The notes beneath the pieces are model-generated. The model ran no database searches and was not told the origin of the DNA. It saw only the letters and a program-made list of their open reading frames with translations. The translations under genes and the position numbers were made by a program. Below are positions 62,184-64,000 of a stretch of 64,000 nt of DNA, piece after piece. Origin of the DNA: Escherichia coli (GTDB lineage Bacteria; Pseudomonadota; Gammaproteobacteria; Enterobacterales; Enterobacteriaceae); assembly GCF_003334405.1 (NCBI RefSeq), contig NZ_QOWM01000007.1; one strand, written 5' to 3'. Each line of letters starts with the position of its first letter. The first letter of the stretch is position 1.

Positions 62184-62262
62184 CCTCAGGGAACCTTTGT
62201 TACCGCTATGACCCGGCCCGCGCAGAACGGGCCGGTCATTATCTCATCGTGTGGAGTAAGCA

Positions 62263-63084
62263 ATGTCGTGTGAAGAACTGGAAATTGTCTGGAACAATAT
62301 TAAAGCCGAAGCCAGAACGCTGGCGGACTGTGAGCCAATGCTGGCCAGTTTTTACCACGCGACGCTACTCAAACACGAAAACCTTGGCAGTGCACTGAGC
62401 TACATGCTGGCGAACAAGCTGTCATCGCCAATTATGCCTGCTATTGCTATCCGTGAAGTGGTGGAAGAAGCCTACGCCGCTGACCCGGAAATGATCGCCT
62501 CTGCGGCCTGTGATATTCAGGCGGTGCGTACCCGCGACCCGGCAGTCGATAAATACTCAACCCCGTTGTTATACCTGAAGGGTTTTCATGCCTTGCAGGC
62601 CTATCGCATCGGTCACTGGTTGTGGAATCAGGGGCGTCGCGCACTGGCAATCTTTCTGCAAAACCAGGTTTCTGTGACGTTCCAGGTCGATATTCACCCG
62701 GCAGCAAAAATTGGTCGCGGTATCATGCTTGACCACGCGACAGGCATCGTCGTTGGTGAAACGGCGGTGATTGAAAACGACGTATCGATTCTGCAATCTG
62801 TGACGCTTGGCGGTACGGGTAAATCTGGTGGTGACCGTCACCCGAAAATTCGTGAAGGTGTGATGATTGGCGCGGGCGCGAAAATCCTCGGCAATATTGA
62901 AGTTGGGCGCGGCGCGAAGATTGGCGCAGGTTCCGTGGTGCTGCAACCGGTGCCGCCGCATACCACCGCCGCTGGCGTTCCGGCTCGTATTGTCGGTAAA
63001 CCAGACAGCGATAAGCCATCAATGGATATGGACCAGCATTTCAACGGTATTAACCATACATTTGAGTATGGGGATGGGATCTAA
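62263..63084 (+). CDS. cysE: serine O-acetyltransferase
   Basis: 273-aa ORF with C-terminal hexapeptide repeats. Confidence 0.96.
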   Translation: MSCEELEIVWNNIKAEARTLADCEPMLASFYHATLLKHENLGSALSYMLANKLSSPIMPAIAIREVVEEAYAADPEMIASAACDIQAVRTRDPAVDKYSTPLLYLKGFHALQAYRIGHWLWNQGRRALAIFLQNQVSVTFQVDIHPAAKIGRGIMLDHATGIVVGETAVIENDVSILQSVTLGGTGKSGGDRHPKIREGVMIGAGAKILGNIEVGRGAKIGAGSVVLQPVPPHTTAAGVPARIVGKPDSDKPSMDMDQHFNGINHTFEYGDGI

Positions 63085-63096
63085 TGTCCTGTGATC

Positions 63097-63133
63097 GTGC
63101 CGGATGCGATGTAATCATCTATCCGGCCTACAG
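63097..63133. repeat. REP element between convergent cysE and trmL
   Basis: gtgccggatgcgatgtaatcatctatccggcctaca matches the REP consensus (GCCGGATGCG ... ATCCGGCCTACA). Confidence 0.7.
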
Positions 63134-63136
63134 TAA

Positions 63137-63610
63137 CTAATCTCTCAATACCGCTCCCGGATACCCCAACTGCCGCCAGGCTTCATACACCACTACCGAC
63201 ACCGCATTGGACAGATTCATGCTGCGGCTGTCCGGCACCATCGGAATGCGAATTTTTTGTTCAGCGGGCAGGGCATCAAGAATGCTCGCTGGCAGGCCGC
63301 GTGTTTCCGGGCCGAACATCAGATAATCGCCATCCTGATAGCTTACGGCGCTGTGAGCAGGTGTACCTTTCGTGGTGAGGGCGAACAGGCGCTGGGGATT
63401 TTCTGCTTCGAGGAACGCGCGATAGTCATGATGACGCGTAACGGCGGTAAACTCGTGATAGTCCAGCCCCGCGCGGCGCAGGCGCTTATCGTCCCAGGCA
63501 AATCCCATCGGTTCGATGATATGCAGACGAAAGCCGGTATTAGCGCAAAGACGGATGATGTTGCCAGTATTTGGCGGAATTTCTGGTTCGTAAAGTACGA
63601 TGTTTAGCAT
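63137..63610 (-). CDS. trmL: tRNA (cytidine34/5-carboxymethylaminomethyluridine34-2'-O)-methyltransferase
   Basis: 157-aa SPOUT-family ORF starting [27 protein letters not shown]. Confidence 0.93.
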
Positions 63611-63667
63611 ACTGCCCCCTTAGTGCGGGGGCAGGATAGCAGAAAATTGGTGAGCAGTGCGGCCTTT

Positions 63668-63799
63668 TCCCCTCACCCCGGCCCTCTCCCCGGAGGGGCG
63701 AGGGAGAAAAAAAGAGTGCGGTGTCGTTTCAGAGTGAGGGAGTACATACAGCGCCGAACGGTCCCCTCTCCCTGAGGGAGAGGGTTAGGGTGAGGGGGC
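63668..63799. repeat. GC-rich compound imperfect palindrome (CCCTCACCC / CCCTCTCCC units)
   Basis: cccctcaccccggccctctccccggaggggcgagggag ... tcccctctccctgagggagagggttagggtgaggggg; the two blocks are inverted relative to each other and each is internally palindromic; lies between trmL and lldD. Confidence 0.6.
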
Positions 63800-63807
63800 G
63801 CAAACGA

Positions 63808-64000
63808 CTATGCCGCATTCCCTTTCGCCATGGGAGCCAGTGCCGCAGGCAACTCTTTACCCAGCCCCTGCACCAGCGAATCTTGCGTAATTTCGCTGAT
63901 CGATTTCGCGCCAGTCAGCGTCATCGCCACTTTCATCTCTTTTTCGATCAGATTTAGCAGGTTAGCTACACCCGCCTGGCCCGCTGTTGCCAGCGCATAC
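63808..64000 (-). CDS. lldD: L-lactate dehydrogenase (FMN-dependent), 3' end only, truncated by the window edge
   Basis: Minus-strand translation ends ...[53 protein letters not shown]-stop, the LldD C-terminus. Confidence 0.85.

What the first reader, a model, noticed from the sequence alone, without database searches (positions are those of the whole stretch)
63612..63634. trmL ribosome-binding site is embedded in a perfect 8-bp GC hairpin
Immediately 5' of the trmL start codon the mRNA would read CUGCCCCC-gcacuaa-GGGGGCAG-u-AUG. The G-rich 3' arm is the only candidate Shine-Dalgarno and is fully paired with the upstream C-rich arm. This predicts structure-limited translation initiation or a regulatory or processing site.
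Basis: seen in the sequence. Interest (0 to 1): 0.25.

Follow-up and report, generated by a model that had tools for sequence, protein, structure and literature searches.

The report
Promoter nested in conserved RBS hairpin
The strong hairpin covering the trmL ribosome-binding site is real and conserved across Enterobacterales, but trmL's own promoter starts transcription inside its loop, so it most likely silences and ends RNA reading in from the upstream gene rather than throttling trmL's own mRNA.

Summary
On the minus strand the RNA reads CUGCCCCC-GCACUAA-GGGGGCAG-U-AUG, a perfect 8-bp stem of about -18 to -20 kcal/mol. It is the most structured start region of 52 long ORFs in the window.

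The hairpin is single-copy and near-invariant in 5,421 E. coli genomes. It is present in 56 of 80 related loci across Enterobacterales. Its arms covary, and only the sense RNA benefits from G·U pairs.

The interpretation needs revision. Immediately 5' of the stem, and overlapping it, lies a conserved extended -10 promoter (TGnTATnnT), and the 5' arm is its GC-rich discriminator. Published E. coli K-12 constructs place the trmL transcription start at the first loop nucleotide, so trmL's own mRNA lacks the 5' arm and its Shine-Dalgarno is free.

Published Term-seq finds a bicyclomycin-sensitive RNA 3' end 4 nt after the stem. The upstream gene differs between lineages (lldD, cpxA, an MFS transporter) but is co-directional in most loci.

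Best reading: a fold-back insulator, as in IS10/IS50. It forms only in read-through transcripts, hides the ribosome-binding site, allows Rho termination, and caps the upstream mRNA. This is a new member of known kinds, of modest interest.

The parts
63639..63641 (-). TGn of an extended -10 promoter element (TGC)
   Evidence: T and G are nearly invariant in the 56-species alignment A2. They sit one base upstream of the -10 hexamer.
63633..63638 (-). -10 hexamer TATCCT of the trmL promoter. Its last two bases are the first two bases of the hairpin 5' arm.
   Evidence: T-A-(T)-n-n-T is invariant or near-invariant across 56 Enterobacterales. In Hafnia it is TATAAT and is called promoter-like with TTTATA-16. 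The published TSS lies 7 nt downstream.
63627..63634 (-). Hairpin 5' arm CUGCCCCC. Bases 63632-63627 (GCCCCC) are the promoter discriminator, with C at -1.
   Evidence: It lies upstream of the TSS. It covaries with the 3' arm.
63626..63626 (-). trmL transcription start (G), the first nucleotide of the hairpin loop
   Evidence: The Adams et al. 'entire 5' UTR + ORF' forward primer JW10180 begins GCACTAAGGGGGCAG. Other TSSs in that paper are credited to Thomason et al. 2015 dRNA-seq. The ompA primer from the same set begins at the known ompA 5' end.
63620..63626 (-). Loop GCACUAA. Its length and sequence vary between species.
63612..63619 (-). Hairpin 3' arm GGGGGCAG. With the two loop A's it forms the Shine-Dalgarno AAGGGGG (63621-63615).
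   Evidence: The G-run is near-invariant across species.
63608..63610 (-). trmL start codon AUG. 63608 is also the mapped RNA 3' end (MG1655 3781218).
   Evidence: ORF. The Term-seq 3' end has Rho score 3.68 (significant) and intrinsic-terminator score 1.92, below the 3.0 threshold. The published 61-mer is identical to the window sequence.
63137..63610 (-). trmL coding sequence (157 aa). Its first ~90 nt are C-rich and G-poor (C/G 1.9), which is rut-like.
63611..63807 (-). lldD-trmL spacer (197 nt here). It carries two variable palindromic repeats upstream of the invariant promoter-hairpin module.
   Evidence: The spacer is 47-197 nt in E. coli strains, while the last ~36 nt are invariant. The repeats are listed as HPGQ elements in PMC5100583.

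Best explanation
The hairpin is a fold-back insulator at the boundary between trmL and whatever gene lies upstream.

One ~45-nt module holds three functions. The first is an extended -10 sigma-70 promoter. The second is that promoter's GC-rich discriminator, which doubles as the 5' arm. The third is the trmL Shine-Dalgarno, which doubles as the 3' arm.

RNA polymerase starting at trmL's own promoter begins in the loop. That mRNA has a 16-nt unstructured leader and is translated normally.

RNA that reads in from the upstream operon (lldPRD in E. coli, cpxRA in most other Enterobacterales) contains both arms and folds the roughly -18 kcal/mol hairpin. This buries the SD and abuts the AUG, so trmL is not translated from that RNA. 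The naked, C-rich start of the ORF then lets Rho terminate. In Serratia-type sequences, where a U-tract follows, the hairpin terminates directly. After 3'-5' trimming the hairpin remains as the protective 3' cap of the upstream mRNA.

Shown: the sequence, the fold, conservation with covariation, the conserved -10 signature, the TSS in the loop, and the Rho-sensitive 3' end 4 nt after the stem.

Inferred: the translational block, the link between that block and Rho, exonucleolytic trimming, and stringent or supercoiling control through the discriminator.
For: 1. Stable hairpin containing the SD.

2. Structural selection on the sense RNA.
- Orthologous hairpins occur in 56 of 80 loci, with 34 distinct stems.
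- Native 5'/3' arm combinations average -16.3 kcal/mol against -13.3 +/- 0.44 for permuted partners, with 0 of 20,000 permutations as good.
- On a pseudo-alignment anchored at the -10, the covariation score is 0.282 against 0.144 +/- 0.013 for shuffles (0 of 500), and at most 0.172 for slid registers.
- The pair at +3 is GC 25 / CG 20 / GU 3. The pair at +4 is CG 36 / GC 8 / GU 2 / UA 1.
- The sense RNA is more stable than the antisense in 40 of 53 sequences, p = 4e-5.
- The covarying positions +3 and +4 lie upstream of the TSS, so the selected structure must form in RNA that begins upstream.

3. Promoter.
- The TnTGnTATnnT signature is conserved.
- Hafnia has TATAAT with a -35-like hexamer.
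- The E. coli 5' UTR starts at loop G.
- The own mRNA is unstructured.

4. RNA ends here.
- A Term-seq 3' end falls on the G of the AUG.
- Read counts are 425 upstream and 96 downstream without bicyclomycin, and 942 and 784 with it.
- The Rho score is 3.68 and the intrinsic score 1.92.
- The trmL 5' ORF has C/G of 1.9.

5. A trmL fusion that starts at the TSS, and so lacks the 5' arm, showed no Rho effect. The authors called this unclear. The model predicts it.

6. The module stays with trmL although the upstream gene is LldD, CpxA or an MFS transporter. That gene is co-directional in most loci, with gaps as short as 35 nt.

7. In Serratia the same hairpin is followed by UUUUU and is called terminator-like.
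Against: - The TSS is known to me only through a cloning primer and the paper's stated use of dRNA-seq TSSs. I could not read a primary TSS table.
- TSS positions in other species are unknown.
- No experiment shows that read-through RNA is untranslated, or that the Rho-sensitive 3' end depends on the hairpin.
- The 3' end could arise from endonucleolytic cleavage.
- Related sequences inflate shuffle-based covariation statistics. There may be only about 10 independent lineages.
- Several species have weak stems of -9 to -12 kcal/mol (L035, L060, L065, L020).
- The rut-like composition is modest.
Confidence: 0.55

Rival explanations
1. First reader's model. The hairpin sits in the 5' UTR of the functional trmL mRNA and keeps translation initiation low or conditional, acting as a constitutive throttle, a thermosensor, or a protein- or sRNA-opened switch.
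For: The SD and AUG are embedded in a -18 to -20 kcal/mol stem. The stem is conserved with covariation. In species where trmL lies 35-60 nt after cpxA, co-transcription is likely, so some trmL-encoding RNA does carry the hairpin.
Against: The E. coli TSS lies in the loop, 7 nt after a conserved extended -10. The own mRNA therefore lacks the 5' arm and is unstructured. Rfam gives no match. The loop varies in length and sequence, which argues against a ligand or protein site.
Confidence: 0.12
2. The hairpin serves only the upstream operon, as its terminator or its 3'-end protective stem-loop. The overlap with the trmL SD and promoter is a by-product of a very short intergenic space, with no role in trmL expression.
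For: There is a Rho-sensitive 3' end 4 nt after the stem. It matches the class described. Serratia has a U-tract version. The hairpin directly follows the cpxA stop codon in many species.
Against: The module followed trmL, not the upstream gene, through at least three different upstream neighbours. In E. coli, lldD already has its own mapped 'primary' 3' end at 63761, after a different hairpin. The 3' arm is always the SD, and the stem ends between 3 nt inside the AUG and 7 nt before it.
Confidence: 0.2
3. A DNA-level element. The palindrome is an operator for a dimeric regulator or a cruciform that modulates the trmL promoter.
For: It is a perfect palindrome overlapping the -10, the discriminator and the TSS, where repressors commonly bind.
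Against: The arm sequences change while pairing is kept, the opposite of what a sequence-specific operator shows. G·U pairs make the sense RNA more stable than the antisense in 40 of 53 sequences, and they would be mismatches in DNA. Loop length varies from 3 to 9 nt.
Confidence: 0.03
4. Coincidence. A C-rich discriminator and a G-rich SD happen to be complementary, with no selection on pairing.
For: The core of the stem is a C-run against a G-run. Each has an independent reason to exist, one as discriminator and one as SD.
Against: Pairs outside the C/G runs covary: GC/CG at +3, and CG/GC/UA at +4. Stems reach up to 12 bp and extend into the -10 in L033. Native arms beat permuted arms in 20,000 of 20,000 trials.
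Confidence: 0.03

Closest known systems
IS10/IS50 (Tn10/Tn5) 'fold-back inhibition' of externally initiated read-through transcripts (Davis, Simons and Kleckner 1985; Schulz and Reznikoff 1991). Cited from my own knowledge, not read here.
   Same: The gene's own promoter starts inside an inverted repeat. Only transcripts that enter from outside carry the 5' arm, which pairs with the ribosome-binding site and blocks translation. The gene is thereby insulated from neighbouring promoters.
   Different: Here the gene is a chromosomal housekeeping tRNA methyltransferase, not a transposase. The 5' arm doubles as the promoter discriminator. The hairpin also marks a Rho-sensitive RNA 3' end. No translational assay has been done.
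[quoted passage not shown]
   Same: An energetically stable stem-loop without a U-tract, a precise steady-state 3' end a few nucleotides downstream, bicyclomycin-sensitive read-through, and C-rich sequence just downstream.
   Different: This one contains the next gene's SD and TSS. Exonuclease dependence was not tested. lldD also has another 3' end further upstream.
SD-sequestering 5' UTR hairpin of IS200 tnpA (PMC4513863)
   Same: A nearly identical SD (AAGGGGGU there, AAGGGGGC here) is buried in a stem-loop. IS200 also carries a device against impinging transcription.
   Different: In IS200 the SD hairpin lies inside the gene's own 5' UTR, and a separate terminator handles impinging transcription. 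In trmL one hairpin would do both jobs and is absent from the gene's own mRNA.
Intrinsic (Rho-independent) terminators
   Same: A GC-rich stem-loop in an intergenic region after a co-directional gene. In Serratia it is followed by UUUUU.
   Different: E. coli has no U-tract. The published intrinsic score is 1.92, below 3.0, and the end is Rho-sensitive. Only 5 of 53 orthologues have at least 5 T in the next 8 nt.
Stringently controlled sigma-70 promoters with GC-rich discriminators (rrnB P1, tyrT; general properties in PMC8422995; the specific sequences are from my own memory)
   Same: A -10 hexamer followed by GCGCCCC or GCCCCC, and C at -1 relative to the TSS.
   Different: There is no recognisable -35. 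The promoter relies on an extended -10. ppGpp/DksA or supercoiling sensitivity of trmL was not tested.

Membership tests
SD-sequestering translational hairpin in a gene's own 5' UTR | The SD or start codon is base-paired in a stable local stem | tested here: met
   8-bp stem at -18 to -20 kcal/mol. GGGGG of the SD lies in the 3' arm, and the AUG is 1 nt after the stem.
SD-sequestering translational hairpin in a gene's own 5' UTR | Both arms are present in the gene's own primary transcript | tested here: not met
   The published 5' UTR starts at loop G63626. A conserved -10 overlaps the 5' arm.
Fold-back insulation against read-through (IS10/IS50 type) | The own TSS lies between the two arms, with the 5' arm upstream of the TSS and the 3' arm covering the RBS | tested here: met
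Fold-back insulation against read-through (IS10/IS50 type) | Co-directional transcription enters from upstream | tested here: met
   The nearest long upstream ORF is co-directional in most hairpin-bearing loci; the seven checked are LldD, CpxA or an MFS transporter. Published read counts upstream of the site are 425 without BCM.
Fold-back insulation against read-through (IS10/IS50 type) | Read-through transcripts are translationally silent, and opening the stem restores translation | not testable with these tools
   This needs translational fusions with disrupting and compensatory mutations.
Rho-dependent 3'-end protective stem-loop (Dar and Sorek class) | A stable stem-loop not followed by a U-rich tract | tested here: met
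   The tail is UAUGCUAA. No terminator call at this site.
Rho-dependent 3'-end protective stem-loop (Dar and Sorek class) | A precise steady-state 3' end immediately downstream, with read-through increased by bicyclomycin | tested here: met
   From the literature only. The 3' end is at MG1655 3781218, which is window 63608. Rho score 3.68, flagged 'Yes'.
Rho-dependent 3'-end protective stem-loop (Dar and Sorek class) | The 3' end is generated by 3'-5' exonuclease trimming (PNPase or RNase II dependence) | not testable with these tools
   No exonuclease-mutant data were available to me.
Intrinsic terminator | A U-tract directly after the stem, and Rho independence | tested here: not met
   E. 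coli has 3 T in the next 8 nt. Intrinsic score 1.92, below 3.0, and Rho-sensitive. The feature is met only in a minority, such as Serratia.
Extended -10 sigma-70 promoter | TGn plus a -10 hexamer with A at -11 and T at -7, and a TSS 6-8 nt downstream | tested here: met
   TGC-TATCCT. T, A and the last T are invariant in 56 species. The TSS is 7 nt downstream.
Stringent or supercoiling-sensitive promoter | GC-rich discriminator with C at -1, and repression by ppGpp/DksA or by DNA relaxation | tested here: inconclusive
   The sequence features are met: GCCCCC with C at -1 (criteria). The regulatory response could not be checked because no data set was reachable.
REP/BIME or other dispersed palindromic repeat | Many copies per genome | tested here: not met
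   Exactly one place per genome in 5,421 E. coli genomes, and none on plasmids.
Any Rfam family | A covariance-model hit at or near the gathering score | tested here: not met
   No hit overlaps 63608-63641, even at E up to 10.

The most novel reading that the evidence does not exclude
The trmL module may be the first recognised example of a general, compact 'promoter-inside-hairpin' boundary element for housekeeping genes. In this element a single RNA stem built from the promoter discriminator and the Shine-Dalgarno would do three things: cap the upstream mRNA, make incoming read-through RNA untranslatable and Rho-sensitive, and leave the gene's own loop-initiated mRNA fully active. Expression would then be set only by a growth-rate-sensitive promoter, whatever operon lies upstream.
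Probability: 0.3. Interest if true: 0.55.

Novelty: new member of a known kind. Interest (0 to 1): 0.38.

Why it matters
TrmL makes Cm34/Um34 in tRNA-Leu and has been reported to be needed for efficient RpoS expression through UUX-Leu decoding. A recent review notes that it is unknown whether TrmL itself is regulated.

The analysis gives a concrete, testable picture of how trmL is expressed. It would have its own extended -10 promoter with a stringent-type discriminator, insulated from the lactate-inducible lldPRD operon (or the Cpx stress operon in other genera) by a hairpin that exists only in read-through RNA.

It also offers an explanation for a result the authors of a published 3'-end atlas called unclear: a significant Rho score at trmL but no Rho effect in a fusion that starts at the TSS.

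More generally, it shows how one 45-nt module can overlap a promoter, a ribosome-binding site and an RNA 3'-end determinant. That is relevant to operon annotation and to designing genetic insulators.

Tried and rejected
- An Rfam scan of 63000-64000 at E up to 10 found nothing at the hairpin.
- The consensus promoter/terminator scan of the window found neither at this site. The promoter lacks a -35 and the stem lacks a U-tract.
- RNAalifold on the plain MAFFT alignment predicted no pairs, because the 3' arms are in different registers. I replaced it with a -10-anchored pseudo-alignment and an alignment-free arm-swap test.
- I looked for primary TSS tables or independent 3'-end tables and found nothing usable. 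Thomason 2015 is not held. The supplements of Cappable-seq, SMRT-Cappable-seq, Kim 2012 and Salmonella dRNA-seq had no trmL/yibK entry in the text held. The Dar and Sorek supplements are not held.
- I looked for ppGpp-regulon data on trmL and found none reachable.
- tRNA-Leu anticodon-loop mimicry, as possible autoregulation by TrmL, is rejected because loop length (3-9 nt) and sequence are not conserved.
- A dispersed-repeat origin is rejected because the element is single-copy.
- A DNA operator or cruciform, and an antisense-strand RNA, are rejected on G·U asymmetry and on covariation.
- A crude G·U versus A·C count over all 14 columns was uninformative, at 55 against 40, because loop columns dilute it.

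Full report
**Where we are**

The window is E. coli DNA. It carries gpsA (+), cysE (+), trmL (-, 63610..63137) and the 3' end of lldD (-, stop at 63808-63810). The same 601 bases occur at 100% identity in RefSeq E. coli chromosomes, where the two genes are annotated lldD and trmL.

Read on the minus strand, the RNA is ...UCUGCUAUC-CUGCCCCC-GCACUAA-GGGGGCAG-U-AUG.
- The 8-bp stem is the minimum-free-energy structure in 36-nt, 114-nt and 261-nt contexts. The values are -19.9 kcal/mol with z = -3.2, -28.8 with z = -3.2, and -103.7 with z = -4.4.
- Perfect 8-bp stems with at least 7 G/C and a 3-10 nt loop occur 5 times in the window, against 0.43 +/- 0.67 in dinucleotide shuffles.
- Of 52 long ORFs in the window, trmL has the most structured -35..+3 region, at -18.1 kcal/mol against a mean of -4.8, sd 4.1.
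- AAGGGGG is the only SD-like sequence, and its G-run is the 3' arm.

**It is not a repeat element, and it is fixed in the species**

The lldD-trmL spacer varies from 47 to 197 nt among E. coli strains, because two palindromic GGGTGAGGG/CCCTCTCCC repeats are present, truncated or absent. The last ~36 nt (UCUGCUAUCCUGCCCCCGCACUAAGGGGGCAGUAUG) are identical in all five length variants. A 55-nt probe finds exactly one place in 5,421 of 5,426 complete genomes and none on plasmids. 5,344 of those matches are at 99% identity or better. Rfam has nothing at this site.

**It is conserved well beyond Escherichia, and the pairing is what is conserved**

A scan of one genome per species returned 80 trmL loci. 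56 of them carry a hairpin at the same place. They cover Enterobacteriaceae, Erwiniaceae, Yersiniaceae, Hafniaceae, Budviciaceae and Photorhabdus. Pasteurellaceae, Xenorhabdus, Moellerella, Rheinheimera and Marinobacter do not carry it.

The arms differ between lineages while pairing is kept:
- CUGCCCCC/GGGGGCAG in Escherichia
- GCGCCCCC/GGGGGCGC in Edwardsiella
- GCGUCCCUC/GGGGGACGC in Rahnella
- GCGGCCCUU/GAGGGUCGC in Erwinia
- GGCUCUCG/CGGGAGCC in Tatumella
- a 12-bp GCUUCGGCCCUC/GAGGGCUGAAGC in one Pantoea

There are 34 distinct stems in all. Three tests support selection on pairing.
- Arm-swap test, which needs no alignment. Native 5' and 3' halves fold to -16.3 kcal/mol on average. Permuted partners give -13.3 +/- 0.44, and none of 20,000 permutations did as well.
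- Pair counting on a pseudo-alignment anchored on the -10 hexamer and one central pair. The covariation score is 0.282 against 0.144 +/- 0.013 for shuffles (0 of 500), and at most 0.172 for slid registers. The pair at +3 is GC 25 / CG 20 / GU 3, with 1 unpaired. The pair at +4 is CG 36 / GC 8 / GU 2 / UA 1.
- Strand test. G·U pairs make the sense-strand RNA more stable than the antisense strand in 40 of 53 distinct sequences (p = 4e-5).

Together these point to an RNA of the trmL sense strand rather than DNA or an antisense transcript. One caveat applies: the sequences are related, so the shuffle statistics overstate independence. The double changes still occur in several separate families.

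**The twist: a promoter sits on the 5' arm**

In the 56-species alignment, the most conserved non-coding columns are not in the stem. They lie just 5' of it: T.TG.TA(T)..T, with T, A and the final T invariant. This is the signature of an extended -10 element, TGnTATAAT. E. coli has TGC-TATCCT, Hafnia has TATAAT, and Edwardsiella has TATACT. The tool's consensus scan calls the Hafnia site promoter-like, as TTTATA-16-TATAAT.

The last two bases of the hexamer are the first two of the E. coli 5' arm. The rest of the arm (GCCCCC, or GCGCCCC in most genera) occupies the discriminator position.

Adams et al. built an 'entire 5' UTR + ORF' trmL fusion. Elsewhere in the paper they credit their TSSs to the Thomason et al. 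dRNA-seq map. Their forward primer begins GCACTAAGGGGGCAG. That places the transcript's first base at G63626, which is 7 nt after the hexamer and is the first base of the loop. The ompA primer from the same set begins at GCCAGGGG, which I recall as the known 5' end of ompA mRNA, so the primer convention holds.

An RNA starting at G63626 lacks the C-rich arm entirely. It folds no better than shuffles (-12.2 kcal/mol, z = 0.07). The covarying positions +3 and +4 lie upstream of the TSS, so the selected hairpin must form in RNA that starts further upstream.

**RNA ends at the hairpin**

The same study's Term-seq lists a 3' end at MG1655 3781218. Its 61-nt context is identical to the window and places the end at the G of the AUG (63608), 4 nt after the stem.
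- Read counts are 425 upstream and 96 downstream without bicyclomycin, and 942 and 784 with it.
- The Rho score is 3.68 ('significant').
- The intrinsic-terminator score is 1.92, below their threshold of 3.0.

This matches the class defined by Dar and Sorek: Rho-dependent transcripts end precisely just after stable stem-loops that lack a U-tract, the stems protect against 3'-5' exonucleases, and rut sites lie just downstream. The first ~90 nt of trmL are C-rich and G-poor, with C/G of 1.9.

Only 5 of 53 orthologues have at least 5 T in the 8 nt after the stem. In those, for example Serratia with GCCCCUCGUCAUGAGGGGC-UUUUUAC-AUG, the hairpin is a textbook intrinsic terminator.

**The module belongs to trmL, not to the upstream gene**

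The nearest upstream ORF is co-directional in most hairpin-bearing loci but differs by lineage. It is LldD in Escherichia and several Enterobacter-like genera. It is CpxA in Cedecea, Shimwellia, Siccibacter, Erwinia, Pantoea, Serratia, Yersinia, Rahnella, Hafnia, Edwardsiella and Budvicia. It is an aromatic-acid MFS transporter in Citrobacter and Lelliottia. Gaps are as short as 35 nt.

**Most likely mechanism**

Putting this together gives three inferred steps.
- Transcripts entering from the upstream operon fold the hairpin. This hides the SD and abuts the AUG. By the established relation between initiation-site stability and translation (de Smit and van Duin, from my own knowledge), a stem of about -18 kcal/mol should reduce initiation by orders of magnitude.
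- The untranslated, C-rich start of trmL then allows Rho to terminate, or the U-tract does so in Serratia-type sequences. Trimming leaves the hairpin as the 3' cap of the upstream mRNA.
- Transcripts from trmL's own promoter start in the loop, cannot fold, and are translated.

This reading accounts for a result the authors called unclear. trmL has a significant Rho score, yet their fusion, which starts at the TSS and lacks the 5' arm, is unaffected by rhoR66S.

The logic is that of IS10/IS50 fold-back inhibition of externally initiated transcripts (from my own knowledge). IS200 offers a related pair of devices, and its buried SD is nearly identical (AAGGGGGU).

The GC-rich discriminator with C at -1 also predicts ppGpp/DksA and supercoiling sensitivity, by the criteria summarised in PMC8422995. 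I could not test this.

**What is shown and what is inferred**

Shown here or in cited data:
- the sequence and the fold
- single-copy status
- conservation with covariation, and the sense-strand asymmetry
- the conserved -10 signature
- the TSS in the loop (indirectly, through a primer)
- the Rho-sensitive 3' end
- the variable upstream gene

Inferred:
- the translational block on read-through RNA
- its coupling to Rho
- exonucleolytic trimming
- stringent control
- the assumption that TSS position is the same in other genera

**Rivals**

It needs a major TSS upstream of the stem, and none is indicated.
- A pure upstream-gene terminator or cap. This is compatible with the 3'-end data. It does not explain why the 3' arm is always the SD, or why the module travelled with trmL.
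- A DNA operator or cruciform. Covariation and G·U asymmetry argue against it.
- Chance complementarity between the discriminator and the SD. Covariation outside the C/G runs argues against it.

**Novelty and score**

I found no description of this element in the searchable literature. Each ingredient belongs to a known kind, so I file it as a new member of known kinds, combined in an unusually compact way. Interest is modest at 0.38. The element is a clean, testable example in a tRNA-modification gene whose regulation is described as unknown. It does not overturn anything.

Noticed in passing
window 63664-63712 and 63755-63800 (minus strand), lldD-trmL spacer: Two GC-rich palindromic repeats (CCCTCACCC...CCCTCTCCC / GGGAGAGGG...GGGTGAGGG). 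They are present, truncated or absent among E. coli strains, so the spacer ranges from 47 to 197 nt. A 2016 paper lists them as HPGQ (hairpin/G-quadruplex) elements HPG1 #43 and HPG2 #44. The published 'primary' lldD 3' end (MG1655 3781065, window 63761) lies just after the first repeat's hairpin.
   Followed up: partly
window 63093-63128 (minus strand), between the 3' ends of cysE and trmL: A REP-like palindrome gives a sub-threshold match to naRNA4/CssrE (26.2 bits against a gathering score of 59.5, E = 0.024).
   Followed up: no
window 63561-63577 (plus strand), inside trmL codons ~12-17: A terminator-like hairpin plus T-rich tail on the strand antisense to trmL (TTGCCAGTATTTGGCGG AATTTCTGGT). 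The orthologous site is also called in Hafnia (L037 2550-2534). It might stop antisense read-through from the convergent cysE, or it may simply reflect the conserved PPNTGN coding sequence.
   Followed up: no
window 62213-62235 (plus strand), gpsA-cysE spacer: Another perfect 8-bp GC hairpin (CCGGCCCG, loop 7). A very abundant published Term-seq 3' end (MG1655 3782582 minus strand, about window 62244) lies 9 nt after it, about 19 nt before the cysE start codon.
   Followed up: partly
loci L017, L021, L024, L031-L053, L056-L059, L074 (upstream of trmL): Outside Escherichia, Enterobacter and Citrobacter, the gene directly upstream of trmL is cpxA, with a gap of 35-100 nt in most loci (up to 245). 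cpxA-trmL is therefore probably the ancestral arrangement, and the lldD-trmL junction of E. coli is derived. A preprint on Providencia O-antigen loci also mentions trmL/yibK; I did not open it, and from memory the O-antigen cluster of Proteus and Providencia lies next to cpxA.
   Followed up: partly
MG1655 3781497 (+) and 3781526 (-), inside trmL (about window 63329 and 63300): Published Rho-termination regions lie on both strands inside the trmL ORF. The sense-strand score is 8.4 and the antisense score 3.4. Together with convergent cysE, this suggests heavy Rho policing of the locus.
   Followed up: no
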